Assembly (NCBI GenBank): GCA_044368015.1
Contig: JBIPLF010000003.1
Span: 8,659 to 72,658, forward strand
From: Rickettsiales bacterium
GTDB lineage: Bacteria; Pseudomonadota; Alphaproteobacteria; Rickettsiales; RI-342
Direction of reading: 5' to 3'
Length of the DNA stretch: 64,000 bases
A program made the position numbers and the translations under genes. Positions 19,342-33,613 of the stretch are shown here, one piece after another. The notes under the pieces were generated by a model. It had not been told where the DNA came from, did not search any database, and saw only the letters and a list, made by a program, of their open reading frames with translations. Within the stretch, counting starts at the first letter, position 1. The number at the start of each line of letters is the position of its first letter.

Positions 19342-19418
<77 letters not shown>

Positions 19419-19584: not shown

Positions 19585-19633
19585 TGGTGGGGGGAGAGGG
19601 ATTTGAACCCCCGACCAAGGCGTTATGAGCGCC
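19585..19633 (-). other. Orphan 3' portion of a tRNA-Met (CAT) gene, the element-end direct repeat (att)
   Basis: 49 nt run from the anticodon stem to CCA. They are 46/49 identical to the 3' part of the intact tRNA at 33322-33370. Confidence 0.85.
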
Positions 19634-19831
19634 GAAGTCAGAAATCCGAAGCGTTCCTAACACCCCCCATTGATTCCTGAAAACCCTAGCTTTCGTAGTA
19701 TATTAAGGCAAGGCAATTTCCCAAGCACTCCTAAAAATTTCGAGCTTTTTCTGTCTCTCCACCTTATTATGACCTTATTGCGAAGATCGGTTTGCCTGTT
19801 TTGAAGGGGTAAACCTTATTGTGGATGCGAG

Positions 19832-21004
19832 GTGAAAATGGCAGCGGTCAAGCTAACGAAAACCTATGTGGAGAAGCTCCCCTACACCGAAAAGGGGCAG
19901 CAATACTACCAAGACGCGGAGCTAAAAGGCTTCGGAGTGGCGGTGGCAATGCAGTCCAAAACCTACTTTGCCCAGCGCGATATTTTCGGCAAAACAGTGC
20001 GGGTGACCATCGGCAAGCATGGGGTGTTTACCACCGAGGAAGCGCGGGAAGAAGCACGACAACTCCTCGCCCGCATGGCCAAAGGAGAAAACCCAAACAC
20101 CACCAAAAAGGAACTCCTGCAAAAGCGGCTAACCTTTGCCGAGGCGCTGGAGCAATACCGCAAAGGTAGGAAGCAGCTGAGCCAGACCATCCACTACCGC
20201 CTTGACTGCCTGAAAACCATGTACCTCCCCGATTGGCAACTGGTGCAATTGCACGAGATAAGCAAGGAAATGGTCTTTAAGCGCCACCTGAAAATTGGCG
20301 AGAAGCACGGCAAGACGCAAGCCAACACCGTCTTCCAACTGGTGCGTGCGATCTATAATTTCGCTATGCAGGGGCATGACCACCTGCCGCCCAACCCCGT
20401 TACCGCGCTTTCCTCCGCGAAGGCATGGTATAAGGAAACCCGCCGCCGTTCCGTGATTAAGCCCCACCAGATAAAACCATGGTATGACACGGTGATGCTG
20501 CTCGATAACAGCACCATCCGCGACTATTTGCGGCTGTTGCTCTTTACGGGAATGCGGCGCATCGAAGCGATGGAACTGCGCTGGGAAAATGTGGATTTCG
20601 CCGAGCGCATGTTGACCGTACCCCATACCAAAAACACCGAGCCATTGGATTTGCCATTGAGTGATTATGTGTTTGCCCTCTTGCAGGAACGCACAAAGCG
20701 CACCGGCAAAAGCCCGTTTGTGTTTCCGGGTGACGGTAAAACAGGGCATCTGGTGGAGCCAAAAAACAGTGTCAAGAAAATCGCGGAGGATTCAGGCGTT
20801 CCCTTTATGCTGCACGATCTGCGCCGCACCTTTACGACCATTGCCGAGAGTTTGGATATCCCCGCTTATGCCATCAAGGGACTGATCAATCATAAATCGG
20901 GGAGCGACATTACGGCATCCTACATTATTATGACCCCCGACCGCCTCCGCGAACCAATGCAGAAAGTGACAAACAGGATTCTGGAGTTGGCAGCGGTGGG
21001 ATAG
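19832..21004 (+). CDS. int: Tyrosine recombinase/integrase (P4-like, DUF4102 arm-binding N-terminus)
   Basis: N-terminal KLTKTYVEKL...YYQDAELKGFGVAV...TYF, and C-terminal catalytic region with RRIEAMELRW, HDLRRTF and the HKSGSDITASY tyrosine region. Confidence 0.92.
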   Translation: MKMAAVKLTKTYVEKLPYTEKGQQYYQDAELKGFGVAVAMQSKTYFAQRDIFGKTVRVTIGKHGVFTTEEAREEARQLLARMAKGENPNTTKKELLQKRLTFAEALEQYRKGRKQLSQTIHYRLDCLKTMYLPDWQLVQLHEISKEMVFKRHLKIGEKHGKTQANTVFQLVRAIYNFAMQGHDHLPPNPVTALSSAKAWYKETRRRSVIKPHQIKPWYDTVMLLDNSTIRDYLRLLLFTGMRRIEAMELRWENVDFAERMLTVPHTKNTEPLDLPLSDYVFALLQERTKRTGKSPFVFPGDGKTGHLVEPKNSVKKIAEDSGVPFMLHDLRRTFTTIAESLDIPAYAIKGLINHKSGSDITASYIIMTPDRLREPMQKVTNRILELAAVG

Positions 21005-21079
21005 GGGCGCGGCTAAAACAACCTTTAGTTGCAGGCATCCCCTACCCCCCCTTTAACCCTGAGAGAAGGAAAAGGAGCA

Positions 21080-21895
21080 GTGCGTAAGATAGGAAAATGG
21101 GAATACCCGTATAAGGTCTGGCCAGAAGATTTTCTGGATGATCACGTCTATTCTGACGATTTTATTGAGGGCATTGCCAAGAAGTATCATATTTCAGACC
21201 AAATCGCTTTGAAGGAGTGTCTGATCCGCAGTGCCAAATTCTATGTGGGGGATGAAGCCTATTATGGTGATACGGGTAACAGCACGTCAGCACTAAAAGA
21301 TGAAGTCAGAAAAATCAGGAAAGCCTTAGATGATCTGGACAACCGGTTAAGCAGGCTATCGCTGGAGGCATATGAGGCGTATGTAGCTGAGTTTAGCTCT
21401 ACCTACCCAGAGGATTGCGGTACACCTTCTTTTTACTCCGAGAGACGTTTTAATGCAGAGTTTTTTGGAGAAATCAAGCCCTCGCTTGAACAGTTTTACG
21501 GTGGGTATGATGGCTTTGACACGTTTAATGAATCCATCAAATCTCTAAAGGAAATTGGGGAGACATTTCAAGAAGCAAGCGATGAAATACTTAAAAACCT
21601 TGCGTTCCATGCCCCGTTGAAAGATGGATCAGGACATCAAAAAAAGCCCCTTTCCATCTATGTGGAGAGCATGAGTGAATTTTGGCTTTCATGTGGAAAG
21701 GGGCCTATCAAAGTTTCGCGTTATGCAGCCGAAAAGGAAGAAAAAGATAGGAAAGTACTCTACGCTGGTGATTTCCTTGATTTCCTTATGGAATGCCTTG
21801 AGCCTATAAAGTTTCACAACCAAGCTGGTGCTTCTGCAGGAGCTAAATACAAGTTGCGAGGCTCCATCGCAGCCATATTAAAGCCCCGAAAATAA
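21080..21895 (+). CDS. Hypothetical element protein
   Basis: ORF with AAGGAG 5 nt upstream of GTG 21080. No family was recognised. Confidence 0.5.
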   Translation: MRKIGKWEYPYKVWPEDFLDDHVYSDDFIEGIAKKYHISDQIALKECLIRSAKFYVGDEAYYGDTGNSTSALKDEVRKIRKALDDLDNRLSRLSLEAYEAYVAEFSSTYPEDCGTPSFYSERRFNAEFFGEIKPSLEQFYGGYDGFDTFNESIKSLKEIGETFQEASDEILKNLAFHAPLKDGSGHQKKPLSIYVESMSEFWLSCGKGPIKVSRYAAEKEEKDRKVLYAGDFLDFLMECLEPIKFHNQAGASAGAKYKLRGSIAAILKPRK

Positions 21896-22017
21896 ACATC
21901 TTTTTCTTATTTGCACCAATTGTCCTTAAGGGGGATTGTGTGCATGCAACCCTTTGTTATTCCTGAGAAGAAATGGCATCTTTGTATCGTGTTCAACACC
22001 ACAAAGGAGAGCCAAAA

Positions 22018-22236
22018 ATGGAAAAGACACATCTAATTACCTCACAGGATACCCCGCTTCTGAATGAGAAGGAAGCGGCGGAATATCTCAATCTCGCCGT
22101 CAAGACGCTTCAATATTGGCGCGTTGCAGGCGGCGGCCCCGCTTTTATCAAAATGGGGCGGCTGGTTCGGTACGAACTCAGCACACTCACATCTTATATC
22201 GAATCAAATCGCAAGGTTAATACCTGCAACTTCTAA
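22018..22236 (+). CDS. Excisionase/AlpA-type helix-turn-helix DNA-binding protein
   Basis: LLNEKEAAEYLNLAVKTLQYWRVAGGGPAFIKMGRLVRYELSTL is the typical Xis/MerR-like HTH_17 pattern. Confidence 0.75.
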   Translation: MEKTHLITSQDTPLLNEKEAAEYLNLAVKTLQYWRVAGGGPAFIKMGRLVRYELSTLTSYIESNRKVNTCNF

Positions 22237-24788
22237 TGGAGCGCATCATGTCAATATATACCACTTCTACTACCACTCAATCACTCATCGAAGCACTCAA
22301 TCTTTCCAAAGTAGATGGCTATTGCTGTCTTTGGGAGGCGCCCAGTAAAAAGTCTACTTTTCTACATACTTCCGAAACTCAGAAAATTACCCAAACGGCT
22401 CTGGAACTTGCGAAAACGCAGAATATCTACATGCCGATTGCCTTATTTCCTAAGCCGCAAGAGAGGGGGCGCGGTAAGGCAAGCGAAGCCAGCCACTTGA
22501 TCGGATTTTTCGGCGATATTGATACGTTGGAGAAACCTGACCCCAAAGGCCATAAATATGCGCCTGATAAGGAAACGGCTCGCAAGATCATTGAAGAAAT
22601 CCCGTTCGAGCCAACCTATGTGACCGACTCCGGTTATGGTCTGCATGTGCTGTGGTTGTTTCCTGAGCCATTGGAGCTACATGATATGGCGCAACGTGAG
22701 GCGGTTTTCCTGCTCTATAAGCGATTCCAGAAAATGCTGGAGTCCCATTTCGCCGCGCATGATTACGAAGTGGATAAGGTCGGCGATCTGGTGCGGGTTT
22801 TCCGCGTGCCTGGCACTCAGAACCACAAGGGCGAGAAGCCGGTTCCCGTGACGATACTGGAAGCCTATCCTGAGAATCGCGTCACTATCGAAGAGGTGAA
22901 AGCCTATCTTGATGAGCATTACCCTGAACAGCAAAAACCCAAAAAGCAGGGAAAATCCTTTCCCCTTGCGGATGCAGAATTAATCCGTGAAGAATGCGCG
23001 TGGTTTGAGCACTGTATTGAGGATGCAAGTACCCTTTCAGAGCCAGAATGGTACGCGGCATTAAGTATTATCGGGCGCTGCAAAGACGCTGAGAAATTGG
23101 CGCATGACTATAGCTGCGACTATCCCGGTTATAGCGAAGCGGAGACCACAAAGAAGCTAAATCAGGCGATCCTCACGGCGGGACCTCGCACCTGCGAAAA
23201 CATCCGTATGGAATGTGATGGAGAGGAATATTGCGACCAATGCCCGCATTCGGGAAAAATCACCTCACCGATTCAGCTAGGTACCAAAGGCCATGAAGCA
23301 GACAGCATGAAAGACCGACTGCTGGCTACAGCCAAGCAGGTGGAGTTCTGGCACACCAAGAATGATACTGCTTACGGCACGATTGCCCGTGATGGACACC
23401 GGGAGCATATGCTGTTGCAAAGCCCGCGTTTCCGCAAATGGCTAATCCATCAAATGCGCCAAGAGAGCGGTAAAATTCCGAGCAAGCAGGCGGTAGATGA
23501 AGTGGTTGGCGCGCTGGAAGGACAGGCCATGTATGATGGGCCGGAATATGAAGTGTACCAGCGCGTCGCCTACCATCATGACCGCTTGTATATCGACCGT
23601 GGCACCGATGACTGGTCAGTGATAGAGGTGACTCCTGAAGGCTGGAATATCATCGCCGAACCGCCCATCCGCTTCATTCGCTCAGACAGTATGCAGCCGC
23701 TTCCCGAACCCAGCCGCAAGGGTGATGTTACGCTGCTTAAACGCTATATACCATGTGATAGCGAGAGCGAGGATGAATTCAAGCTCATCATCGGCTTCAT
23801 CCTGGGTGTTTTTGCGCCGCAGAAGCCATATCCGCTGGCGGTGCTGACCGGGCTTGCGGGATGTGGAAAAACGACCCGTGCCCGCGTGATTGTCGCCCTT
23901 ACAGACCCGTCATCATCACCACTGGTGGCCGCTCCCAAGGATGATCGTGATATATTCGCGTCTGCTTGCGCCCGCTGGCTGACCACGCTGGATAACGTCA
24001 AGCAGGTGAGCGATAGCATTTCTAATGCGCTTTGCTGTATCTCCACAGGCATTTCCAACTCAGGGCGCATGTACTTCACCAACATGGGCATCTTTGAAAC
24101 TCCTGAATTCGCCCGCCCGATGATGCTGACGGGGATAGAACTGCGTTTACGTCAGGATTTGCGAAGCCGCGCGATTTTCTTCGAGTTCTCCCCGCTGGAA
24201 GCCAAGGACTGCAAAACAGAACACGAGTATTACAAGAGTTTCACTCAGGATGCCCCTACGATTTTCGGCGGCATACTCGATGCTCTCTCCGCTGCGCTTC
24301 GCAACTGGGAGAAAACAGGTGTTGCTTTGCGTGGCGCTGAATTACCCCGCCTTGCGGATCACACGGTATGGGTCAGCGCTGCTGAAGAAGCCTTGGGCTG
24401 GGAGCCGGGAACCTATTGCCGCATTCTCCTCAAGCATCAGCGTGACGGCATGGCCGATAGCGAGATGAACTCGATCTTTGGGCAGATGATGCTGGGCTAT
24501 CTGTCGTCTAAAGCTGATAAAATGAAAGAGCCGCAATTATTCTCTGTGAGTGATTTATATACTGACTTGGTACACTGGATGGAAAATCAAAAAATATCCA
24601 AGGATGAACGCAAATTTATCCCCCGTACTCCAGCCACTTTTTCTAAAAAACTGCGCCGTGCTGTCCAGTCCTTGGCCTATTATGGCGCGGATTTTGAGTT
24701 CGGTGTCACGCAGGAGGGCAACAAGCGGATAATCCGCATCACCCTAAGCAAGGAGTTCATTGAGGAATCACAATACCGCACTTTCTGA
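22236..24788 (+). CDS. Replication protein: AEP-type primase-polymerase fused to a P-loop (SF3/D5-like) NTPase
   Basis: AEP motifs FFGDIDTLE, DSGYGLHVLW and VFRVPGTQNHKG; a Cys cluster CENIRMECDGEEYCDQCPH; Walker A GLAGCGKTT. Confidence 0.8.
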   Translation: MERIMSIYTTSTTTQSLIEALNLSKVDGYCCLWEAPSKKSTFLHTSETQKITQTALELAKTQNIYMPIALFPKPQERGRGKASEASHLIGFFGDIDTLEKPDPKGHKYAPDKETARKIIEEIPFEPTYVTDSGYGLHVLWLFPEPLELHDMAQREAVFLLYKRFQKMLESHFAAHDYEVDKVGDLVRVFRVPGTQNHKGEKPVPVTILEAYPENRVTIEEVKAYLDEHYPEQQKPKKQGKSFPLADAELIREECAWFEHCIEDASTLSEPEWYAALSIIGRCKDAEKLAHDYSCDYPGYSEAETTKKLNQAILTAGPRTCENIRMECDGEEYCDQCPHSGKITSPIQLGTKGHEADSMKDRLLATAKQVEFWHTKNDTAYGTIARDGHREHMLLQSPRFRKWLIHQMRQESGKIPSKQAVDEVVGALEGQAMYDGPEYEVYQRVAYHHDRLYIDRGTDDWSVIEVTPEGWNIIAEPPIRFIRSDSMQPLPEPSRKGDVTLLKRYIPCDSESEDEFKLIIGFILGVFAPQKPYPLAVLTGLAGCGKTTRARVIVALTDPSSSPLVAAPKDDRDIFASACARWLTTLDNVKQVSDSISNALCCISTGISNSGRMYFTNMGIFETPEFARPMMLTGIELRLRQDLRSRAIFFEFSPLEAKDCKTEHEYYKSFTQDAPTIFGGILDALSAALRNWEKTGVALRGAELPRLADHTVWVSAAEEALGWEPGTYCRILLKHQRDGMADSEMNSIFGQMMLGYLSSKADKMKEPQLFSVSDLYTDLVHWMENQKISKDERKFIPRTPATFSKKLRRAVQSLAYYGADFEFGVTQEGNKRIIRITLSKEFIEESQYRTF

Positions 24789-24789
24789 T

Positions 24790-25050
24790 CCGGCGGTGCG
24801 CGGGCGGTAGAGCGGCGGTGGCATGGGGTGCTACCGCCGCGTCTTATTATAGGTGGAGCCTACGTTGCAGCCTGTTGCGGCGGTACGGCGGTAGGTGCGG
24901 CTACCGCCTAATAACCCCGCCCTTATAGCCCGCGCCTATTAGCCCCCGTATTTTACCGCCTAGCCGCCGCGCCGCCGTAACCCGCGCTACAGCTAGCTTC
25001 CGAGGCGGCGGGAACGGCGGGGCTACCGTACCCCTAACCGCCGCGCCGAA
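24790..25050. repeat. Iteron-like array of about 10 GGCGGT(A/G)/(T/C)ACCGCC motifs on both strands, candidate element ori
   Basis: Motifs start at about 24793, 24804, 24814, 24879, 24887 (GGCGGT) and 24834, 24904, 24955, 25038 (ACCGCC), with a shifted GCCGCCGTAAC variant at about 24970. The array lies directly downstream of the primase-helicase gene. Confidence 0.55.
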
Positions 25051-25102
25051 GCGGTCAGACGGTTTTTCTTGCCTTTGCTGTGTGTGCCCGTATCGAATGG
25101 TC

Positions 25103-25441
25103 ATGAGGCACATATCCGAACAGACCAAACGCATCGCGGAACTGAATGACCTGCTACGCCAGACCTTCTGGGGCGGGAAGGTGATGATGACCGATGGTGT
25201 TTTGCAACTTGATGGTCAGACCATTGACCAGATATTTGCGGCAGTGCGTGACTTTGACACCTTCAACGCGGACAATGACCCGCACGGGGAGCATGACTTC
25301 GGGTGCATAACCGTGGCAGGAAACAAGGTGTTCTGGAAGATCGACTATTACGATGCGCGTATGGAGTTTGCGTCTCCAAACCCTGCCGATCCCGATGTTA
25401 CCGAGCGTGTACTAACCATCATGCTGGACGAAGAATACTAA
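25103..25441 (+). CDS. DUF3768 protein
   Basis: DNDPHGEHDFG...FWKIDYYD matches my recollection of the DUF3768 signature. Start uncertain (25082 or 25103). Confidence 0.6.
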   Translation: MRHISEQTKRIAELNDLLRQTFWGGKVMMTDGVLQLDGQTIDQIFAAVRDFDTFNADNDPHGEHDFGCITVAGNKVFWKIDYYDARMEFASPNPADPDVTERVLTIMLDEEY

Positions 25442-25754
25442 GCGGCCTCCCATATAACCCGCGCCATCACTGGCGCTCCTCCTGTCCATTCCTTCCAAGC
25501 CTCACTGGATAGCATTGCTTCTTACGATCCCCCCTTTTCTTAGCCCGATCCCAGCTGACCACTGTACCCTCCCCCCAGCCGCTTCACGGGTCCTTTTGGA
25601 CCAAAAAACTCACGAGGGCGGGCGGTGCGCATAAATGCTCCAGTGCCAGGATTTTCTGGCGAGGGGGAGGAGGAAACGTAAGCCTATGAATTTATAGACT
25701 CTCCCTGTATAGTTTGTCCACAGGTGGTGGATTGAAACTAAAAGCACGCTGAAT

Positions 25755-26759
25755 ATGGACACACAGGCGCTTTCCTTCTTAAAGGATTCTTTAGCGGGTA
25801 CAAAGTACTCGCTAGATAAATATATCGTACAGGCTAATGCTGACTTCACCGTCGCGGGAAAGCATATATCTGGCCACGTCCACTACGTTCCTATTGATAA
25901 AAATACTGGTAAACCCGACACAGCTAATTTCACTCAATACATTATGGGAAAGTTGATTGCTTTCTGTGTGCCTCCTTCTCAGCAGAAGCTAATAAAAGAT
26001 GCCGCTGAAAGTGAAAATGATGCTTCGATGGAGCTAGTACAAGCTGCATCCGAAACCTTAAAAGCGATTAGTGAACGGAAAGATGGTAAAAAGAGTTCTT
26101 CAGGAGAAATTGGAGAATTGATACTTTTTGTGCTTTTAGAGGGTATTCTGTGTGCACCTGCTGTTGCCTCCAAACCTTATCTAAAGATGAACGGGCAGGA
26201 TCAGGTGAAAGGCTGTGACGGCGTACACATTTTGTACGACGGAAACGATGTAGTGATTTACTACGGCGAATCAAAACTATCCCCCGATGTAGATTACTGC
26301 GTTAGCGATTCGGCGAAGTCAATTAAGGCCTACCACGCCAATGGCAACAATAAAAAAAGGCGCGATTTAAGCGTTATTGCTCAGAACATAGATTTGAATA
26401 TTAGTGGCGATTATAAGGAAGCTATAGAAAACGAGCTTCTCTATTACTTAAACCCAGTTAGACGCAAAAAGAAAGAGCGATCTTACAAGGAAATTAACGC
26501 ATGCTTTCTTGGGTTTGACCACGATCTTTACAAGAAATTGGAAACTGTAGATAAGGCCGAAAGAAACCAGTTGCTCCTACAAGAGGTAACCAAAGAATTT
26601 CCCACTATACTCAGCAAAATTGACAAAAGCATAGACAGCACCATTTCTGATTACAATTTTCATTATTTTGTAATGCCCTTTGATAGCGTTAGCGAGATGC
26701 AGACGCTATGTGAAGAGTATCTAAAACCCTTCTCTTTCCATAAAGGAGGGACAACATGA
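25755..26759 (+). CDS. PD-(D/E)xK-type nuclease candidate, DUF1837/HamA-like
   Basis: GEIGELILFVLLE ... CDGVHILYDG ... YYGESKL gives an E / D / ExK arrangement. Its stop overlaps the helicase start (ATGA at 26756-26759). Confidence 0.6.
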   Translation: MDTQALSFLKDSLAGTKYSLDKYIVQANADFTVAGKHISGHVHYVPIDKNTGKPDTANFTQYIMGKLIAFCVPPSQQKLIKDAAESENDASMELVQAASETLKAISERKDGKKSSSGEIGELILFVLLEGILCAPAVASKPYLKMNGQDQVKGCDGVHILYDGNDVVIYYGESKLSPDVDYCVSDSAKSIKAYHANGNNKKRRDLSVIAQNIDLNISGDYKEAIENELLYYLNPVRRKKKERSYKEINACFLGFDHDLYKKLETVDKAERNQLLLQEVTKEFPTILSKIDKSIDSTISDYNFHYFVMPFDSVSEMQTLCEEYLKPFSFHKGGTT

Positions 26760-29377
26760 TTATAGATAAGGTGGCCAACGATATTCATGAATCGGATGAA
26801 TTCCAAAACCTCTATAAAAATCTTCTTACAAAAGAATTACATAATATTCTTCATTTGGAACCAAGCATAATAGGTACGCTTTCTGAAGATGATCTGGATA
26901 CTCTCTTAGAATGTGCCATTATTTATGCTACAGTAGATGACGATAGCGCTGACGCCGCGAAATACCATGACATTGCCTATCGCATAGCAATTCTTCTGAG
27001 TCATTATTACGGAGAATATACCGCTTCTAATGAAGCGGAGCTATATTTGGTGTTTTCTCGGTTAGGACGTTATCCAATTGCGGCGCAGTATTTTAATGCA
27101 CGGGACACCGCTATACACGACTCATTACCAATTTTTCTATTCGGGCCAGCCGAATTTTCTAGAAAACTGAATACGATTAAAATAGGAGAGCAGCAGTATA
27201 TTCTAACAAATTTCCAAAAGAAGTTTTGGAATCGTATACATAATAGCAAACAGTTGGCCATTTGCGCCCCCACTTCCGCAGGCAAAAGTTTTATTCTGAC
27301 TCAATATCTTGTTTCAGAGTATTTTGCACACGAATCCAATTTTATAGCGGTATATGTGGTTCCTACTAATGCTCTAATAAATGAGGTATCTGACAATATT
27401 TTGGAGTGTTCTAAGCGTAATTTTAGGGAAAGGCCAGCCCTCTACACTACAGGTGTCGATACGAGTGAAGTTGCTAACCGCAAAGCGGTGTATGTGCTGA
27501 CCCAAGAAAAACTTTCCAGCCTTATAGCAAAGATGAGAGATAGGGAGGAGCCACAAGACTTTAATGTAGATTTGTTGATCGTGGACGAAGCCCAGATTAT
27601 CGCAGATGGTGAGCGCGGCGGAATTACCAAAAATGTGATTGAAGACTTACTATCCAATAACGAAAACACCCATATAGTTTTAGGTTCTCCTCCTGTTCAA
27701 AATTTAGAAGGTTATGCAAAATTCTTTGAACTTAAAGAGCTTACCACATACCCCGAAACAATAAATCCCGTGGCGAAGAACCTAATACGCATTCACAAAA
27801 AGAAAGGTAGTACCACTAAATTTGATGTTACCGTAAGTTTTGGGAGCACTTTCTTATCGCGGAACTCTTTGGAAATTAATGGTATTACTCTTGGCTCTGT
27901 ATATAAGTGTTTAGCTGGCTTTGCCATGAAATATGGGCACAAAGATCCTTCCTTGATTTATGCAAGCGTTCCCTCAGATTGTATAAAAATTGCCGGAGTA
28001 ATTGCTGAAAGCGATACTCAAGCCCCTATAGCAAACGCCAATATTGAAGAATTTAGCCAGTTTATAACAGACTATATACATCCAGAATTTAAGCTAGCAG
28101 AGTATATCAAGAAAGGAGTTGGATTCCATTTTGGCGCTCTCCCTCTTGTCGTAACAAAACAGCTTGAGGAAAAGTTTCGTAACCGCGATTTTCCGTATTT
28201 AGCTTCCACTAGCACATTGTTGCATGGCGTTAATTTGCCCGCAAAAAACTTGTTTCTGTGTAGGCCAAAGAAAGGAAAAAGCGAGCCGCTCGATAATATT
28301 GAGTTCTGGAATTTAATAGGGCGTGCTGGGCGGCTCGGCAAAGATTTTCAAGGAAACGTCTTTGTAATAGAAAATGAGAACGAAACAGAGGATTCTCCTC
28401 TATGGTCTACCGAGTACATCGCCAGCGAAGGAACACAAACGATAGAATCCGCCTTGGATAAATGCCTAAAACTTAATCCTGAAACCCAAAAAAGCGACCT
28501 AGGTTTGTATCTTGATGAGGTAATTCGCAGTGACAAAATACCCGAAGCCCGGAGAGGAGTAGAGAATGTTTTTTCTCAACTCCTATATTATCAAAGAAAG
28601 GGACGCCTAAAACAATCTCTGGAAAGGTCAACGCTGCTATTGGATGAGCATGAAATAGGCTCTATTATGGCAAGCATCCAGTCGATTTCTAATGGTCTTA
28701 CTGTCGATTCTGATCTTTTAGATGGACATCGGGATATTTCACCACTTCGAATACAGCGGTTATACGACAGATTATCTGAATTAGCTGCCAATAACGAAAT
28801 TGCAGGTACAAATAGGATACCTAAGCACCCGACAGACAATAAAAATAGCCAAGCATATAAGAGTCTCGAAACCATCTTTTTTTCTCTATTCAAATATTTT
28901 GGGGTTGGGGGGAACAATGCGAGGCAAAGTACGTTTGCAACGATTGCGTTCAAATGGATGGAGGGGGAGAATTATAACGTACTTGCAAGGGAATATGTGG
29001 AAAACTCAGATTTTGGTAGCGAGGATACTACGACGAAAATTCATAACTTCTTTTCTGTTTTACAAAGAGAAATTAGTTATGAATATGCGAAATATATGCG
29101 CTGCTACATTAGCGTTTTAGAACTTGTGAATTATGAGGCGGAAACTCCTTTTTTACATGAGAACGCGCACATTGCTCCACTGCATAGTTATTTAGAAGAT
29201 GGTACATACATCACTTCACAGCTGTCTTTGATTAAGAATGGGCTGTCTCGAATGTCGGCGATTGAAGTTTATCGTATTCTACAGAATCAGTTGGGAACAA
29301 ATGCAGAGCTTGCTGAAACAAAAGCTACCGTGCGGAGTAAGGCCGCTGTCTTAAAAAGAGAAAGGCCGCTGTCTTAA
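26756..29377 (+). CDS. Large SF2 helicase, HamB-like
   Basis: Motif I CAPTSAGKSF, motif II LLIVDEAQ, motif V-like ASTSTLLHGVNLPA and motif VI IGRAGRLGKD, with about 170-aa N-terminal and about 300-aa C-terminal extensions. Confidence 0.75.
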   Translation: MIIDKVANDIHESDEFQNLYKNLLTKELHNILHLEPSIIGTLSEDDLDTLLECAIIYATVDDDSADAAKYHDIAYRIAILLSHYYGEYTASNEAELYLVFSRLGRYPIAAQYFNARDTAIHDSLPIFLFGPAEFSRKLNTIKIGEQQYILTNFQKKFWNRIHNSKQLAICAPTSAGKSFILTQYLVSEYFAHESNFIAVYVVPTNALINEVSDNILECSKRNFRERPALYTTGVDTSEVANRKAVYVLTQEKLSSLIAKMRDREEPQDFNVDLLIVDEAQIIADGERGGITKNVIEDLLSNNENTHIVLGSPPVQNLEGYAKFFELKELTTYPETINPVAKNLIRIHKKKGSTTKFDVTVSFGSTFLSRNSLEINGITLGSVYKCLAGFAMKYGHKDPSLIYASVPSDCIKIAGVIAESDTQAPIANANIEEFSQFITDYIHPEFKLAEYIKKGVGFHFGALPLVVTKQLEEKFRNRDFPYLASTSTLLHGVNLPAKNLFLCRPKKGKSEPLDNIEFWNLIGRAGRLGKDFQGNVFVIENENETEDSPLWSTEYIASEGTQTIESALDKCLKLNPETQKSDLGLYLDEVIRSDKIPEARRGVENVFSQLLYYQRKGRLKQSLERSTLLLDEHEIGSIMASIQSISNGLTVDSDLLDGHRDISPLRIQRLYDRLSELAANNEIAGTNRIPKHPTDNKNSQAYKSLETIFFSLFKYFGVGGNNARQSTFATIAFKWMEGENYNVLAREYVENSDFGSEDTTTKIHNFFSVLQREISYEYAKYMRCYISVLELVNYEAETPFLHENAHIAPLHSYLEDGTYITSQLSLIKNGLSRMSAIEVYRILQNQLGTNAELAETKATVRSKAAVLKRERPLS

Positions 29378-29384
29378 AAAGAGA
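29339..29384 (+). repeat. Perfect 23-bp tandem duplication (AAGGCCGCTGTCTTAAAAAGAGA x2) at the 3' end of the helicase gene
   Basis: The two copies at 29339-29361 and 29362-29384 are identical. The second copy shifts the frame and creates the stop at 29375. Confidence 0.95.
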
Positions 29385-29519
29385 GTTGCATCCGTACTTT
29401 TATAGCGAGGTAGCTAAAATCTTTGATTTGCAGTAGCGAGCAAAGCTAACCGCGCACATTCCTTTACTTTAATCCCTGCACCCCATATTATTGCCGGTGG
29501 AGTAGCGTGTTGCTGCTCT

Positions 29520-29707
29520 GGGGCTAGTTACCCCTTATCGAAAGCGTTTTCGCTGAACACGATAGTTCGGCTCCCATGCCTATGGCTGGGAGTCTGCCGA
29601 ATACAATAGCGGCTTGCCGTGAATAAGGCAGGCACGATCTTTCGACGTGTAACTAGCTCCCAGTCACCAGTCTGTTTTCCGGCCATACCGGCAAAGCCGC
29701 TGGTGAC
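29520..29707 (+). ncRNA. Unclassified highly structured region (candidate ncRNA or 5' leader)
   Basis: A 12-bp closing helix (29520-29531 with 29649-29660) and a 7-bp helix (29538-29544 with 29639-29645) enclose hairpins at 29569-29594 and 29612-29633. An 8-bp-closed long hairpin follows at 29663-29707. G-U pairs occur only if the plus strand is transcribed. Confidence 0.45.
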
Positions 29708-29739
29708 TTACGTTTGAAAACCAAATGTAGGGAGCCTGT

Positions 29740-29976
29740 ATGGAGCAATATGATATTTGGGCGGATGCCCTGAACAAATTTTCCCAGCTTACGCCGTGGG
29801 TGCAGGTGGCTATCTGCCTTGGCCTATGCGCGGTGGTGCTGGGAGTGGCCTATTTCGTGAAGGAAATCGTGGCTGTGGTGATGTCGCCGTTTAAGAAGCC
29901 AGAGGAACCGAAAGAGCCGAAGAAAGAGTGGCGGGATAAATGGTATCGCGGAGATGAAGCGGAAAAGAACCTCTGA
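29740..29976 (+). CDS. Small single-pass membrane protein with a highly charged C-terminal tail
   Basis: GGGAG lies upstream of the ATG. TM segment WVQVAICLGLCAVVLGVAYFV is followed by KKPEEPKEPKKEWRDKWYRGDEAEK. Confidence 0.5.
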   Translation: MEQYDIWADALNKFSQLTPWVQVAICLGLCAVVLGVAYFVKEIVAVVMSPFKKPEEPKEPKKEWRDKWYRGDEAEKNL

Positions 29977-30075
29977 TAACGCCTTTTCCTTAAACAGTTT
30001 TCCCTCGTTTATATAGACAAATAGCTAGGTTGCTGGCATTGTGTGGAGCTATCGAAACCATGATAGCAAAGCACC

Positions 30076-31128
30076 GTGCAACATGCGGAGGCCTATGTTG
30101 AGGCCATAAGAAAAAGCGGATTTTCCATATACGATCCCATCGAGGTGGGCGCCCCCACGCTATGGATACCCAGCCCTGAACTCGAATATCTGCTGAATAA
30201 CCGCCTGAAAGGAATTTCCCTCGCCGGACTTCCGCTGCGTACGCGCTCGAAAATCGTGAAAGAGCATGTGTGCAAAGCGCTCGGCTACCCCGTTCCCGCC
30301 TCTTTTAAGAAGACCCAGCCACGCTTTTCTGGCCAGTTCTTCGATACCTATATCCAGAAATCGAACAATTTGCAGGTGTGGAACGAGGAGCTTTCGCCCA
30401 CGCGCCGCTACGTTATTATCCGCGTGTCGCCCGAAGATATGATCGTAAGGGTGCGGGTAATAACGGGGGATAGCCTTTCCTTGCTGGATACCACGGGAAC
30501 GCTGACCCAGAAATTTCAGGCTCGCTTGGTTCCTGGCGATAAGGATGCGGAGCTAATCGCCGAGCAAGATACCGCGCTGCTGACGCCGCACGTCCATGAA
30601 TCCGTAGGGTTAGCGCATAAAGCAAATCCCACCGACCATCCTGACGGGAGAACGCTGCTGTCGATAAAGTCCGTTTATAAAAAACTGCATTCCTTGGTGG
30701 GTGCGGGCTTCCCCGATGCGGGCATCGACCAAGAACGCAACCGTGGCGCGGCGCTCCATCGGCTGGTATGCGAAAAGCTGGGTTATAGCAGCTACCAAGA
30801 TGACGGCCAGTTCCCCGATGTGCGAAACCAGCTATTGGAAGTGAAGCTGCAAACCTCTCCGACTATCGACCTCGGCTTGGTATGCCCAGACTGCACGGAC
30901 GCGCTGGACGTTCCCCAAATAGGCGGGGCGCAGATACGGCATTGCGACGTGCGCTATGCGCTGTTTTATGCCGTGATCGAGAATGGCACGGTACGGATTA
31001 CCCACTTTTACCTGACCACAGGCGAGCGGTTCTTTACGCGCTTTCCCAAATTCGGAGGGAAGGTACTGAACAAGAAATTGCAGATTCCATTACCCTCGAA
31101 CTTCTTTGACGGGCAATCCGAAAGCTGA
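30076..31128 (+). CDS. Candidate type II restriction endonuclease, MutH/Sau3AI-like PD-(D/E)xK
   Basis: FPDVRNQLLEVKLQ has the same D-x6-E-x-K spacing as the MutH catalytic D70/E77/K79 (DFEALGVELK). It is convergent with, and overlaps, a methyltransferase gene. Start is GTG. Confidence 0.6.
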   Translation: MQHAEAYVEAIRKSGFSIYDPIEVGAPTLWIPSPELEYLLNNRLKGISLAGLPLRTRSKIVKEHVCKALGYPVPASFKKTQPRFSGQFFDTYIQKSNNLQVWNEELSPTRRYVIIRVSPEDMIVRVRVITGDSLSLLDTTGTLTQKFQARLVPGDKDAELIAEQDTALLTPHVHESVGLAHKANPTDHPDGRTLLSIKSVYKKLHSLVGAGFPDAGIDQERNRGAALHRLVCEKLGYSSYQDDGQFPDVRNQLLEVKLQTSPTIDLGLVCPDCTDALDVPQIGGAQIRHCDVRYALFYAVIENGTVRITHFYLTTGERFFTRFPKFGGKVLNKKLQIPLPSNFFDGQSES

Positions 31129-32838
31129 CCATACGAGTTGATCTATCTCTCTTTCGATACGGGTGCTTTCGTCGAGGCACGAGCATTCGTACGCTTGCTT
31201 GCTAAGCTGGATAATCCGTTTTGAGGTTTCCTGCATGGGGTAGGGCAGCGGAAACTCCTCGACATACTGGGTAATAAAGCGCCGCCTTCCGGCATAGAGC
31301 TTGTTATTAAAGCGATGGTCGTAAAACGCCTCGATAAAGGAGGAGTTAGCTACCCCCACCGCCAGCCACAGATCGTTGAGCGATTCGTTATCCTGCGCGG
31401 CCAACCAATAGCAGTCTCCGTTTACCACACCGCCGGACTGGTCGATCCAGAAAGTGGGGCGCTCGGAAATATCGCGGAACACCAGCTTTGGCAAATCCCA
31501 GCAAGAAGGGTCTTGCGGCACCCAGATTTCGTACCATGCACGGCCAGCCTCGATAACATATTTCCGGCTCTCCAGCGTTGCTCTGTGCTGTTCCAGATAA
31601 GCGGCGGATTTGGGATGCTGCGCCAGATTGACCGCTTGTTTTTTGCCGTTCGCGGATTCGTGCGGGTAAAGGATTTGCTTCTGCTTACCTGTGGTCTTTG
31701 CCTTAAAGCGTCCAGCGATATGGTGCGTAATAAGGTTACGTAATAATTCCGGCTGTTCCTCGTGCGGTAGCTCGCTCCAGTCCGAGCGGATAAACACCTT
31801 ATCCGCACAGGTTTTTACGCCGACACGGATTTTACCAATGTCCGAGAATCTCTTATGCGTATGCGCGGTAACGCACTCCATCCATTGGTCTGTGTGCGTA
31901 CAGGAAATCCGCCAGACGGAATCGGCACTACCGTTTATATCCAACGCCCCATGCTTTACCGCGAAACTTCTGCCATCCTTAACCGTTACGATCCCCGTGT
32001 TCTTAAGAGCCTCTAGCGGGTTAGCGGCAATCGTGTCTCCAGAATCCTTTGTCTGGTAAATCGAGGAAAATTGGGGGACAGGACTTTCCCGCTTTCCTTT
32101 GCCGCTAAGTAGGAGAACAGCCGGAAGCACGGCCACATCGAAAAGTTTGGTATCGCCCAAATCCCAGACATGCTCGACATTGATTTCGTCGCGCAGGACT
32201 TTCCGAATGGAAGCGCCGGATTTCGTCGTCATGAAACGATTAGATACGATAACCCCCGCCACCCCATCGGGAGCCAGCACACGCGAGATACCCAGCAGGA
32301 ACGGGTAATACAAATCCATCCGTCCCGAGAGATTGAATTGCTGCATAAGCTGGCGGGACTGTTCTCCACCAAGAATTTGCGTCCTAACGTAAGGTGGATT
32401 GGCAATAACCAGATCGAAGGAGTCCGTTTCCTGCGAATTATGGAATAGATCGTGGCTTCCGTAGTGGTTATCCAAAATATAATCGAGGAAACTGGAGCAG
32501 GTGAAATCCAGCGCCACATTCGGAAAACGAGCAGCTATGCGGGATTCCGCCACCGCTAAAGCAGATTCGTCCGTCTCGAACCCACAAACCGTTATCGCGC
32601 ACTCTGCCTCTCCCTCCAACTGTTCGAGAATGCTTAGGAGTAATTCGCCTTCGCCGATGGCAGGGTCGAGAATGCGTAGGTGCTTCTTACTGCCCGTGGC
32701 GTAGGAAGAAAGCATCTGGTGTGCCACAAAATCGGCCAGAACTTTAGGGGTATAGGCGACCCCCCCCGTCTTTGCTTCCGTGGCGGCTCCATAGCGTCTT
32801 AGCGTATTTTGTTCCGGTTCTTTAACATCTAATTCCAT
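31090..32838 (-). CDS. N6-adenine DNA methyltransferase (gamma class, Eco57I-type catalytic domain with TaqI_C-like specificity domain)
   Basis: Motif I LRILDPAIGEGELL, motif IV LVIANPPY, and a C-terminal GDCYWL...RRRFITQYVEEFPLP. Confidence 0.88.
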   Translation of the reverse strand: MELDVKEPEQNTLRRYGAATEAKTGGVAYTPKVLADFVAHQMLSSYATGSKKHLRILDPAIGEGELLLSILEQLEGEAECAITVCGFETDESALAVAESRIAARFPNVALDFTCSSFLDYILDNHYGSHDLFHNSQETDSFDLVIANPPYVRTQILGGEQSRQLMQQFNLSGRMDLYYPFLLGISRVLAPDGVAGVIVSNRFMTTKSGASIRKVLRDEINVEHVWDLGDTKLFDVAVLPAVLLLSGKGKRESPVPQFSSIYQTKDSGDTIAANPLEALKNTGIVTVKDGRSFAVKHGALDINGSADSVWRISCTHTDQWMECVTAHTHKRFSDIGKIRVGVKTCADKVFIRSDWSELPHEEQPELLRNLITHHIAGRFKAKTTGKQKQILYPHESANGKKQAVNLAQHPKSAAYLEQHRATLESRKYVIEAGRAWYEIWVPQDPSCWDLPKLVFRDISERPTFWIDQSGGVVNGDCYWLAAQDNESLNDLWLAVGVANSSFIEAFYDHRFNNKLYAGRRRFITQYVEEFPLPYPMQETSKRIIQLSKQAYECSCLDESTRIEREIDQLVWSAFGLPVKEVRG

Positions 32839-33137
32839 GCAGCCAACTATAACTACTTCCTTCGTAAAGAGCTACCATTGCACACAGAAATTTCCTGTGC
32901 CGTAATTTATACCCCCGATAACCCGCTAAAACCCTAGGGTTTTTACTAAAGCCGTCTGCCAGCGTCCCAGAACGCGGGGTTTAGGGCGGGTAGCCTTACC
33001 CCTTGTAGGTTATGCGATAGGACTCCACGACAAACTGCGGAGGCCGTTTTTTGGCATAAAGGCTAAAAACAGTGGTGGAGAGCGTAAAAACCTATTCGTT
33101 ACCCGTAAACCCCGCCTACAGCGCCTAAAGCGACTAA

Positions 33138-33299
33138 ACCTTATTGCAGGTATGAGGCATCCGATATGGCGACCCCAGACCTTATTGCGGATATTTTGGA
33201 AGCCGTTGCTATAGCAGGATATTTTTGGCCTCTGGTGGCGCTGAACCTTATTGCGGTGGTTGGTATTTTGGAAGATGGCGGCGAAAGACTTATTATAAC
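33138..33299 (+). repeat. Direct repeats of ACCTTATTGC(A/G)G (33138, 33179, 33245) plus ACTTATTATAAC, candidate integrase arm-type sites at the right end
   Basis: The same ACCTTATT core occurs three times at the left end (19761, 19772, 19813) and twice at 33467-33489. Confidence 0.6.
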
Positions 33300-33321
33300 T
33301 AATTGAAATTCCAGTGTTAAA

Positions 33322-33398
33322 TGGTGGGGGGTGAGGGACTTGAACCCCCGACAAAGGCGTTATGAGCGCCCTGCTCTAACCAACTGAGCTAACCCCCC
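33322..33398 (-). tRNA. tRNA with CAT anticodon (Met, or Ile2 if lysidine-modified)
   Basis: GGGGGGTTAGCTCAGTTGGTTAGAGCAGGGCGCTCATAACGCCTTTGTCGGGGGTTCAAGTCCCTCACCCCCCACCA has a perfect 7-bp acceptor stem and encoded CCA. Confidence 0.9.
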
Positions 33399-33565
33399 AC
33401 GGGCTTGAAAACTCTACTCATGACTCCGAATCGTTACTACCCATTTCTTCCTGCACACCTTATTATAACCTTATTGCGCTGTGCAACGCCTTCCAGTTTT
33501 TGCCTTCAAAATCACGTCGAAAGCCTTATGCAGTAAGGCCTCTGGCGATTTACCCTTGCGGGGAT

Positions 33566-33613
33566 GACCTAAGCGTTATGAGCGCCCTGCTCTAACCGCT
33601 GAGCTATTCCCCC
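33566..33613 (-). other. Orphan 5' portion of a second tRNA-Met (CAT) gene (acceptor 5' strand through variable loop)
   Basis: GGGGGAATAGCTCAGCGGTTAGAGCAGGGCGCTCATAACGCTTAGGTC, after which tRNA similarity is lost. Confidence 0.8.

What the first reader, a model, noticed from the sequence alone, without database searches (positions are those of the whole stretch)
25755..29377. Translationally coupled nuclease (DUF1837/HamA-like) plus 873-aa SF2 helicase: a Hachiman-like or new helicase-nuclease defence pair
ORF1 (334 aa) has an E / D / ExK layout (GELILFVLLE ... CDGVHILYDG ... YYGESKL) consistent with a PD-(D/E)xK nuclease. Its stop overlaps the start of a helicase with motifs I (APTSAGKSF), II (DEAQ rather than DEAH/DExH), V and VI (GRAGRLG) and large N- and C-terminal extensions. 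This two-gene layout matches what is published for Hachiman (HamA DUF1837 plus HamB helicase). My assignment of ORF1 to DUF1837 comes from motif memory only. If ORF1 is not DUF1837, this is an uncharacterised helicase-nuclease module in a defence hotspot. It is the strongest candidate for the functional system in this window.
Basis: partly seen in the sequence, partly recalled or inferred. Interest (0 to 1): 0.7.

Follow-up and report, generated by a model that had tools for sequence, protein, structure and literature searches.

The report
Hachiman (HamAB) anti-phage defence cassette
The two genes are a textbook Hachiman anti-phage defence pair (HamA nuclease plus HamB helicase) carried on a mobile island next to a restriction-modification system; this is an ordinary member of a well-studied family, except that a 23-base duplication has cut off the conserved end of the helicase.

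Summary
ORF1 (25755-26759, 334 aa) is a stand-alone DUF1837/HamA protein: Pfam HamA 132 bits against a cut-off of 25, PADLOC HamA1 3.5e-54. Its E118/E121...D155...E172-x-K174 nuclease site is complete. ORF2 (26756-29377, 873 aa) is a HamB Ski2/Hel308-like helicase (PADLOC HamB1 2.8e-172, full length) with all motifs intact. DEAQ is the norm in its subfamily (109 of 120 homologues), not an oddity. Predicted folds match solved HamA and HamB structures. The pair is a discrete 3.8-kb, 40%-GC cassette (25671-29455). It lies in a 13.7-kb integrase island at a tRNA-Met gene of an alphaproteobacterium with 58-60% GC, next to a type II R-M pair. The same cassette sits in unrelated islands elsewhere. 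New here: a perfect 23-bp tandem duplication (29339-29384) frameshifts hamB and replaces its last 16 residues, a family-conserved terminal helix, with 4. This allele may therefore be weakened or inactive. Verdict: a new member of a known kind (Hachiman type I / I-A), of low interest.

The parts
25671..25754 (+). Conserved upstream leader of the cassette with a putative promoter (ATGAAT-16 nt-TATAGT, -10 at about 25709-25714)
   Evidence: DNA homology with the relatives' islands begins at 25671/25678. The block CCTATGAATTTA.AG...TATAGTT is conserved in three islands. The promoter reading is inference; the consensus scan did not flag it.
25755..26759 (+). hamA: 334-aa stand-alone DUF1837 PD-(D/E)xK nuclease (effector); catalytic set E118, E121, K140, K144, D155, E172, K174
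   Evidence: Pfam PF08878 132.4 bits. PADLOC HamA1 3.5e-54 over residues 20-320. Catalytic residues invariant or nearly so in 171 homologues. AF2 model pLDDT 76.9, with top fold hits 8zue_A and 8vx9_A.
26756..29377 (+). hamB: 873-aa Ski2/Hel308-like SF2 helicase (sensor/regulator), translationally coupled to hamA (ATGA overlap); motifs Q (TNFQ 151), I (171-178), Ia (VPTNAL 202), II (DEAQ 277-280), V (482-496), VI (GRAGR 522-526); C-terminus frameshifted
   Evidence: PADLOC HamB1 PDLC00187 2.8e-172 over residues 3-850. Motif conservation in 120 homologues. Model of the 89%-identical P0025: pLDDT 88.7, fold hits Hel308 and HamB 8vx9_B/8vxa_A/8zue_B.
29339..29384 (+). Perfect 23-bp tandem duplication (AAGGCCGCTGTCTTAAAAAGAGA x2) that frameshifts hamB and creates the stop at 29375-29377
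   Evidence: the two copies are identical. It is absent from L001 and L005. The same allele is present in two assemblies.
29385..29436 (+). Now out-of-frame ancestral 3' end of hamB (encodes LHPYFYSEVAKIFDLQ*, the conserved terminal helix)
   Evidence: Removing one repeat copy gives an 885-aa ORF whose tail matches P0025 and P0026. The tail is present in 119/120 homologues, with E877 nearly invariant. The profile match extends from 818 to 844 of 851 when repaired. It is a helix at 883-893 in the P0025 model.
29437..29455 (+). Downstream end of the mobile hamAB cassette (end of homology with the other islands)
   Evidence: blastn of the window against L001/L003 ends at 29455, and against L005 at 29426.
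19585..33370 (.). Context: 13.7-kb integrative island bounded by a 49-nt direct repeat (19585-19633 / 33322-33370, the 3' part of tRNA-Met). It carries an integrase (19832-21004), a primase/polymerase-like 850-aa ORF (22236-24788), DUF3768 (25082-25441), hamAB, and a type II R-M pair (REase 30076-31128 +, MTase 31090-32838 -)
   Evidence: GC: host 0.58-0.60, island genes 0.52-0.55, hamAB 0.40-0.41.

Best explanation
The locus is a two-gene Hachiman type I system (type I-A in the scheme of Cui et al. 2025). HamA is a stand-alone DUF1837 PD-(D/E)xK nuclease with a complete active site. HamB is a Ski2/Hel308-like SF2 helicase. By homology with the characterised E. coli and S. thermophilus systems, the two proteins should form a heterodimer through HamB's N-terminal alpha-helical bundle. 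HamB would survey DNA and hold HamA in check. When a 3' ssDNA end or damaged/replicating phage DNA enters the helicase, ATP binding and hydrolysis would ratchet HamB and activate HamA. HamA would then degrade DNA indiscriminately, phage and host alike, giving an abortive-infection outcome. Shown here: family membership, intact catalytic and helicase motifs, matching folds, operon structure, and location as a horizontally moving 3.8-kb cassette inside a tRNA-Met integrative island next to a type II R-M system. Inferred only: complex formation, the trigger and the DNA degradation. This particular allele has a 23-bp tandem duplication that removes HamB's conserved terminal helix, so its activity may be reduced, deregulated or lost.
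For: Pfam HamA 132 bits vs cut-off 25. PADLOC HamA1 3.5e-54 and HamB1 2.8e-172, both near full length. HamA E118, E121, D155, E172-x-K174 are invariant or nearly so in 171 homologues. Their order and spacing match the mutationally essential D90/E93/D127/E147/K149 of S. thermophilus HamA (PMC13064477) and the ExK pairs E138/K140 (PMC12278908) and E150/K152 (PMC11914072). HamA model: the only PDB fold hits at E<=1e-3 are HamA chains 8zue_A and 8vx9_A, followed by weak restriction-endonuclease hits. HamB motifs are all conserved. The HamB model matches Hel308 and HamB structures, with an all-helical N-terminal region of about 150 residues ahead of RecA1. ATGA overlap and Shine-Dalgarno. Cassette boundaries and 40% GC in three different islands. 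Neighbouring R-M pair. Mechanism from PMC12278908, PMC11914072, PMC13064477.
Against: There are no functional data for this locus. HamB lacks its last 16 ancestral residues, including a Glu conserved in 117/120 homologues as E or D. HamA and HamB are only about 30-40% identical to anything outside a tiny clade. Sequence similarity to the biochemically studied ECOR31 proteins is weak: HamB 1e-7 over about 118 residues, and HamA undetectable by sequence. Published systems also disagree on whether HamA is released from HamB or is active only within the complex, so the activation step is not settled even for the models.
Confidence: 0.93

Rival explanations
1. The cassette is a Hachiman system by descent but is no longer functional here. 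The 23-bp duplication disables HamB, and the locus is decaying cargo, possibly selected because Hachiman is costly or autotoxic.
For: A perfect tandem duplication is unique to the window. The lost tail is present in 119/120 homologues, contains a near-invariant Glu, lies inside the PADLOC profile, and is a confidently predicted helix. Fitness cost of Hachiman expression is reported in PMC13064477.
Against: Only 16 of 885 residues are affected. All catalytic and helicase motifs and the whole of hamA are intact, with no other lesions. The duplication is perfect and therefore recent, so no decay has followed it. The role of the terminal helix has not been tested in any HamB.
Confidence: 0.35
2. 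The 23-bp duplication is a sequencing or assembly artefact and the real gene is the intact 885-aa hamB.
For: The source is a metagenome assembly. The two samples and runs may come from the same community.
Against: The identical 873-aa product is found in a 202-kb JGI contig seen in 2 samples and in a separately assembled Logan contig from run SRR27335586. Exact 23-bp tandem duplications are not a typical short-read assembly error.
Confidence: 0.08
3. This is an uncharacterised helicase-nuclease defence module, distinct from Hachiman.
For: Low identity (30-40% or less) to all but three or four database relatives. No PDB hit for HamA by plain sequence search.
Against: End-to-end profile matches to HamA1/HamB1 at 1e-54 and 1e-172. 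Pfam HamA well above threshold. Fold matches to solved HamA/HamB. Family-invariant residues are conserved.
Confidence: 0.01
4. This is a housekeeping Hel308-like DNA-repair helicase with an accessory nuclease.
For: HamB's best fold hit is Hel308 (2va8) and NCBIfam gives sub-threshold Hel308 hits.
Against: NCBIfam scores are far below the cut-offs (84 vs 891 bits). The pair has 40% GC in a 58-60% GC genome and sits inside an integrase island bounded by att repeats. The same cassette occurs in unrelated islands of other hosts. No relative was found among 185,579 species-representative genomes with close-relative patterns.
Confidence: 0.01

Closest known systems
Hachiman type I-A, E. coli DEC14B HamAB (Cui et al. 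2025, PMC11914072)
   Same: Two-gene layout. HamA consists only of DUF1837 with an intact (D/E)xK site, where E150/K152 are essential in DEC14B and E172/K174 are the equivalents here. HamB is an SF2 helicase with an essential Walker A. This is the majority clade, 86% of 1,781 HamA sequences.
   Different: The host here is an alphaproteobacterium. This hamB allele is C-terminally frameshifted.
E. coli ECOR31 HamAB (Tuck et al. 2024, PDB 8VX9/8VXA/8VXC/8VXY; 'type III-A' of Tian et al. 2025)
   Same: Same folds: HamA model vs 8vx9_A prob 1.00; HamB model vs 8vx9_B/8vxa_A prob 1.00, TMq up to 0.68. Same ExK catalytic logic. An N-terminal helical bundle in HamB.
   Different: ECOR31 HamB is 1,174 aa with a C-terminal OB-like barrel and DEGH in motif II. 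This HamB is 873/885 aa with an all-helical C-terminus and DEAQ. Sequence similarity is marginal (1.2e-7 over about 118 residues for HamB, none for HamA).
PDB 9WH1/9WHK/9WHU HamAB (probably the trypsin-HamAB of the Hachiman-MBL system, bioRxiv 10.1101/2025.09.03.673762)
   Same: Closest solved HamB by sequence (3.7e-39, residues 9-588; 853 aa, similar length). Its HamA C-terminal DUF1837 aligns with the window's HamA family profile (1.8e-20).
   Different: That HamA is 528 aa, has an N-terminal extension and lacks the GExGE/D/ExK residues, and it works with a third MBL nuclease. The window's HamA is a stand-alone active-site-bearing nuclease and there is no third cassette gene. Motif II is DEAH there and DEAQ here.
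S. thermophilus type III-B Hachiman (Tian et al. 2025, PMC13064477)
   Same: The essential HamA residues D90, E93, D127, E147, K149 map by order and spacing onto E118, E121, D155, E172, K174. HamB lacks the OB domain.
   Different: Often linked to PezAT or AbiJ, and no such partner is present here. Sequence relationship not measured.
Hel308 / Pol-theta helicase domain (Ski2-like SF2 DNA helicases)
   Same: Best overall fold match of HamB (2va8, E=2e-21). 3'-tail-loading helicase architecture.
   Different: These are repair enzymes without a HamA partner or an N-terminal HamA-binding bundle. NCBIfam Hel308 scores are far below cut-off.

Membership tests
Hachiman type I (HamA + HamB) | HamA carries a DUF1837 / Pfam HamA (PF08878) domain | tested here: met
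   132.4 bits vs gathering 25, residues 58-309 covering profile 2-230/230. PADLOC HamA1 3.5e-54.
Hachiman type I (HamA + HamB) | HamB is an SF2 (Ski2/Hel308-like) helicase with intact motifs Q, I, Ia, II, V, VI that matches HamB profiles | tested here: met
   PADLOC HamB1 2.8e-172, residues 3-850. Motif columns conserved in 120 homologues. Fold hits Hel308 and HamB.
Hachiman type I (HamA + HamB) | hamA and hamB adjacent, co-oriented, in one operon | tested here: met
   ATGA overlap at 26756-26759. The same arrangement occurs in L001-L005.
Hachiman type I (HamA + HamB) | HamA adopts the HamA/PD-(D/E)xK fold | tested here: met
   AF2 model pLDDT 76.9, pTM 0.82. Foldseek hits 8zue_A (1.9e-4) and 8vx9_A (8.8e-4) are the only ones at E<=1e-3; TM-scores are moderate, 0.45-0.55.
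Hachiman type I (HamA + HamB) | HamB N-terminal alpha-helical bundle (NAH) that binds HamA | tested here: inconclusive
   An all-helical region of about 150 residues precedes RecA1 in the model of P0025, and the profile match starts at residue 3. The HamA-HamB interface itself was not modelled because no complex prediction was available.
Hachiman type I (HamA + HamB) | Protects against phage; needs both nuclease and ATPase activities | not testable with these tools
   Needs plaque assays and mutants.
Hachiman type I-A (Cui et al. 2025) | HamA is DUF1837 only, with no N-terminal fused domain | tested here: met
   334 aa. PADLOC HamA1 profile covered 21-307/312 by residues 20-320. No other Pfam domain.
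Hachiman type I-A (Cui et al. 2025) | Conserved D...(D/E)xK catalytic residues in DUF1837 | tested here: met
   D155, E172-S-K174 plus E118/E121. 167-171 of 171 homologues share each.
Hachiman type I-B/C/D and trypsin-MBL variants | N-terminal Cap4/peptidase/other domain on HamA, catalytically dead DUF1837, and (MBL variant) a third nuclease gene | tested here: not met
   No extension and an intact active site. The cassette homology block holds only two genes. Compare 9wh1_A, which lacks the residues.
Integrity of this allele (not a defining feature of the family) | Complete HamB C-terminus with the conserved terminal helix | tested here: not met
   The 23-bp duplication replaces LHPYFYSEVAKIFDLQ with RPLS. 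The tail is conserved in 119/120 homologues. The profile match extends to 844/851 only after repair.
Hel308 DNA-repair helicase (NCBIfam NF040935) | Score above the equivalog cut-off | tested here: not met
   74.5 bits vs 1200.

The most novel reading that the evidence does not exclude
The perfect 23-bp tandem duplication at the 3' end of hamB might not be simple damage. It could be a reversible, slippage-prone switch: duplication truncates the conserved terminal helix, and precise deletion of one copy restores the 885-aa protein. Such a switch would let a population toggle or attenuate a costly, self-DNA-degrading abortive-infection system. Alternatively, the loss of the terminal helix could deregulate HamB, by analogy with the autoinhibitory C-terminal domain 5 of Hel308 (an analogy from my own knowledge, not tested here).
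Probability: 0.05. Interest if true: 0.5.

Novelty: new member of a known kind. Interest (0 to 1): 0.15.

Why it matters
The scientific value is modest. The locus adds a divergent alphaproteobacterial member to the largest Hachiman clade; it sits in its own 50%-identity cluster, 40% or less identical to the next representative. It also shows the hamAB pair moving as a self-contained 3.8-kb cassette with its own leader between unrelated tRNA-targeting islands in hosts of different GC content. That is a clean example of defence-gene shuffling among mobile elements. The frameshifted allele offers a natural test of what the conserved C-terminal helix of this HamB subfamily does. For annotation, the region should be labelled Hachiman type I, with hamB frameshifted at its 3' end, next to a type II R-M system.

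Tried and rejected
(1) Plain phmmer of HamA against PDB sequences found nothing. A profile of 24 homologues reached only 9wh1_A and not 8vx9_A, so the fold comparison was needed. (2) search for related loci with HamB in 185,579 species-representative genomes found no relative. (3) The consensus promoter scan flagged nothing upstream of hamA, so the promoter proposal rests only on three-way conservation. No intrinsic terminator was found directly after hamB. (4) I first assumed that the ~850-aa primase-like proteins of the window and L001 were homologous backbone genes. BLASTP shows no similarity, so that claim was dropped; only the integrases (44% identity) and DUF3768 (50% to L005) are shared. 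(5) I considered DEAQ a possible inactivating or unusual motif II and rejected this: 109/120 homologues have Q. (6) I considered the 78-aa membrane-like ORF (29740-29976) and DUF3768 as possible third components and rejected both. They lie outside the cassette homology block and are not linked to hamAB in the relatives. (7) A search for the paper behind PDB 9WH1 found nothing relevant. The link to the trypsin-HamAB preprint is an inference from chain counts and domain layout.
Full report
OBSERVATION. The two reading frames exist exactly as described. ORF1 runs 25755-26759 (334 aa) and ORF2 runs 26756-29377 (873 aa), both on the + strand. They overlap in ATGA, and an AGGAGG Shine-Dalgarno lies 7 nt upstream of the ORF2 start. 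GC falls to 0.40-0.41 across the pair, compared with 0.52-0.55 in the neighbouring island genes and 0.58-0.60 in the flanking chromosome.

IDENTITY OF ORF1. ORF1 matches Pfam HamA (PF08878, formerly DUF1837) at 132.4 bits against a gathering score of 25, covering the whole profile. It also matches 21 PADLOC HamA models, the best being HamA1 PDLC00168 at 3.5e-54 over residues 20-320. An exhaustive HMMER search of 1.84 billion cluster representatives finds 666 related clusters at E<=1e-3 and 303 at E<=1e-10. The window's protein sits in its own cluster, and the next representative is 40% identical. In an alignment of 171 of these proteins, E121, K140, K144, D155 and K174 are invariant, E118 is present in 170 and E172 in 167.

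The order and spacing are E118 +3 E121 +34 D155 +17 E172-x-K174. This follows the residues shown by mutagenesis to be essential in S. thermophilus HamA: D90, E93, D127, E147, K149 (PMC13064477). The ExK pair corresponds to E138/K140 of ECOR31 HamA (PMC12278908) and E150/K152 of DEC14B HamA (PMC11914072). An AlphaFold2 model (pLDDT 76.9, pTM 0.82) has only two PDB fold matches at E<=1e-3, and both are solved HamA chains: 8zue_A and 8vx9_A, each at probability 1.00 and TM 0.45-0.55. Weak matches to EcoO109I, FokI and BamHI follow. ORF1 is therefore a stand-alone HamA nuclease with an intact active site.

IDENTITY OF ORF2. ORF2 matches PADLOC HamB1 PDLC00187 at 2.8e-172 over residues 3-850 and has more than 2,500 relatives at E<=1e-10. 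Motifs Q, I, Ia, II, V and VI lie in columns that are invariant or nearly so among the 120 best homologues. It is evidently a HamB, because its partner chain 9wh1_A is a 528-aa 'HamA C-terminal domain-containing protein'. A model of the 89%-identical relative P0025 (pLDDT 88.7, pTM 0.90) shows an all-helical N-terminal region of about 150 residues, two RecA domains and a helical C-terminal region. It matches Hel308 (2va8) and the HamB chains 8vx9_B, 8vxa_A and 8zue_B at probability 1.00. NCBIfam Hel308 and repair-helicase equivalogs score far below their cut-offs.

The nearest HamB relatives are longer (896 and 886 aa). The repeat finder reported a 23-nt tandem repeat across the hamB stop codon. 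In the correct register the two copies, 29339-29361 and 29362-29384, are identical. Neither L001 nor L005 has the second copy. Removing one copy gives an 885-aa ORF ending ...VLKRELHPYFYSEVAKIFDLQ (stop at 29434-29436). This matches the C-termini of P0025 and P0026.

The duplication therefore replaces the last 16 ancestral residues with RPLS. That tail is present in 119 of 120 homologues and contains a Glu conserved as E or D in 117 of 120. It lies within the PADLOC profile, since the match extends from profile position 818 to 844 of 851 after repair. In the model it forms a confident terminal helix, residues 883-893 of P0025. The same 873-aa product occurs in a 202-kb JGI metagenome contig seen in two samples and in a separately assembled Logan contig, so an assembler artefact is unlikely. 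Whether the truncated HamB still works cannot be decided here.

CONTEXT. A 49-nt direct repeat (19585-19633 and 33322-33370, 94% identical) corresponds to the 3' part of a tRNA-Met(CAT) gene at 33322-33398 on the minus strand. It brackets a 13.7-kb island that contains:
- a tyrosine integrase (19832-21004);
- an unannotatable 288-aa ORF;
- an 850-aa protein with a PHROG primase/polymerase N-terminus and a Walker A motif;
- DUF3768;
- hamAB;
- a 78-aa ORF;
- a convergent type II restriction-modification pair (REase_II 1.3e-146, MTase_II 6.6e-194).

The host is an alphaproteobacterium without close sequenced relatives; its DnaN is 50-61% identical to the best species representatives. DNA similarity between the window and the islands carrying the closest relatives is confined to 25671-29455 (87% to L001/L003) or 25678-29426 (77% to L005). 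That is hamAB plus about 84 bp upstream and about 78 bp downstream.

Those other islands have different cargo: RES, DUF4365 and DUF4326 in one set, and M78 peptidase, DUF2130 and TerB in another. They also have a different integration site (tRNA-Thr in L001), an integrase only 44% identical, an unrelated ~850-aa protein, and different flank GC (0.46-0.48). The cassette itself is 0.40 GC everywhere. The conserved leader contains a possible promoter, ATGAAT-16-TATAGT; this is inference only. hamAB thus behaves as a mobile two-gene cassette in variable defence cargo, which is the opposite of the housekeeping context that would have refuted the finding.

MECHANISM (inferred from the family). In E. 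coli ECOR31, HamAB is a heterodimer in which HamB's N-terminal helical bundle holds HamA. Entry of a 3' ssDNA end into HamB triggers ATP hydrolysis and conformational ratcheting, which activates HamA. Phage and host DNA are then degraded, and DNA damage alone can trigger the system (PMC12278908). In DEC14B (type I-A), HamAB but not HamA alone degrades diverse DNAs non-specifically (PMC11914072). In S. thermophilus, HamA is active only in complex with HamB and is stimulated by ATP binding (PMC13064477). The window's proteins keep every residue these studies identify as essential, so the same scheme is the best-supported explanation. Complex formation, the trigger and nuclease activity were not tested here.

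COMPARISON AND NOVELTY. Every defining feature of Hachiman type I / I-A that could be tested was met. The features of the fused or inactive-DUF1837 variants (I-B/C/D, trypsin-MBL) were not met. The system differs from the ECOR31 paradigm in HamB length (873/885 vs 1,174 aa), in lacking the OB-like C-terminal barrel, and in motif II (DEAQ vs DEGH). These are subfamily traits shared with thousands of homologues. The locus is a new member of a known kind. Standard tools (PADLOC and, by extension, DefenseFinder) would annotate it automatically. The only unusual point is the frameshifting duplication.

VERDICT. The 'new module' alternative is rejected. Interest is low (0.15). The residual novel reading is that the duplication acts as a reversible attenuator of a costly abortive-infection system, or that loss of the helix deregulates HamB. 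I give this about 5%.

Noticed in passing
window 30076-32838: Type II restriction-modification pair directly downstream of hamAB. The 350-aa REase (+, PADLOC REase_II 1.3e-146, no Pfam hit) and the 582-aa Eco57I/N6_Mtase/TaqI_C gamma-type adenine methylase (-, MTase_II 6.6e-194) are convergent, and their 3' ends overlap by 39 bp (31090-31128).
   Followed up: partly
window 19585-19666 and 33322-33398: Island att sites: a 49-nt direct repeat equal to the 3' part of tRNA-Met(CAT). The left copy is embedded in a degenerate tRNA-like sequence that just reaches the Rfam tRNA threshold (19588-19666, minus strand, 29.3 bits).
   Followed up: partly
window 19771-19832, 33135-33258, 33457-33481: The short motif (A/G)ACCTTATTG(C/T)(G/A) recurs five times just inside both island ends and once outside the island. 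These are probably arm-type binding sites of the integrase.
   Followed up: no
window 33457-33612: Beyond the intact tRNA-Met lies a second, 5'-half fragment of a tRNA-Met gene (about 33560-33612, 91% identical over 32 nt), preceded by one more copy of the ACCTTATTG motif. This looks like the scar of an earlier integration or excision at the same site.
   Followed up: no
window 22236-24788: 850-aa ORF with no Pfam or PADLOC hit, a PHROG 'DNA polymerase/primase' N-terminal match (4.3e-19) and a Walker A motif (GLAGCGKTT). It is likely the island's replication protein. It is not detectably similar to the 854-aa ORF at the equivalent position of L001.
   Followed up: partly
window 21029-21895: 288-aa ORF with low GC (0.44) and no hit in Pfam, PADLOC or PHROGs. 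It may be another foreign cargo gene of unknown function.
   Followed up: no
window 25082-25441 and L005 2082-2408: DUF3768 protein (Pfam 1.7e-35) just upstream of the cassette. A 50%-identical copy occurs in island L005 but is not adjacent to hamAB there. It appears to be an island backbone gene of unknown function.
   Followed up: partly
window 29740-29976: 78-aa ORF with one hydrophobic helix and a lysine/glutamate-rich tail, between hamAB and the R-M pair. It is called as a gene in the JGI record and lies outside the hamAB cassette homology.
   Followed up: no
PDB 9wh1/9whk/9whu (not in the window): Chain B of these entries is deposited as 'DNA polymerase theta (Helicase domain only)' but is a HamB: it is the best PDB sequence match of the window's HamB, and it is partnered with a HamA C-terminal-domain protein whose DUF1837 lacks the catalytic residues. 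The 1+2+3 chain counts fit the trypsin-HamAB monomer, dimer and trimer structures of bioRxiv 10.1101/2025.09.03.673762.
   Followed up: partly
window 19342-19418: A stand-alone tRNA-Ile(GAT) gene, not part of an rRNA operon in this window, lies about 170 bp upstream of the island's left end.
   Followed up: no
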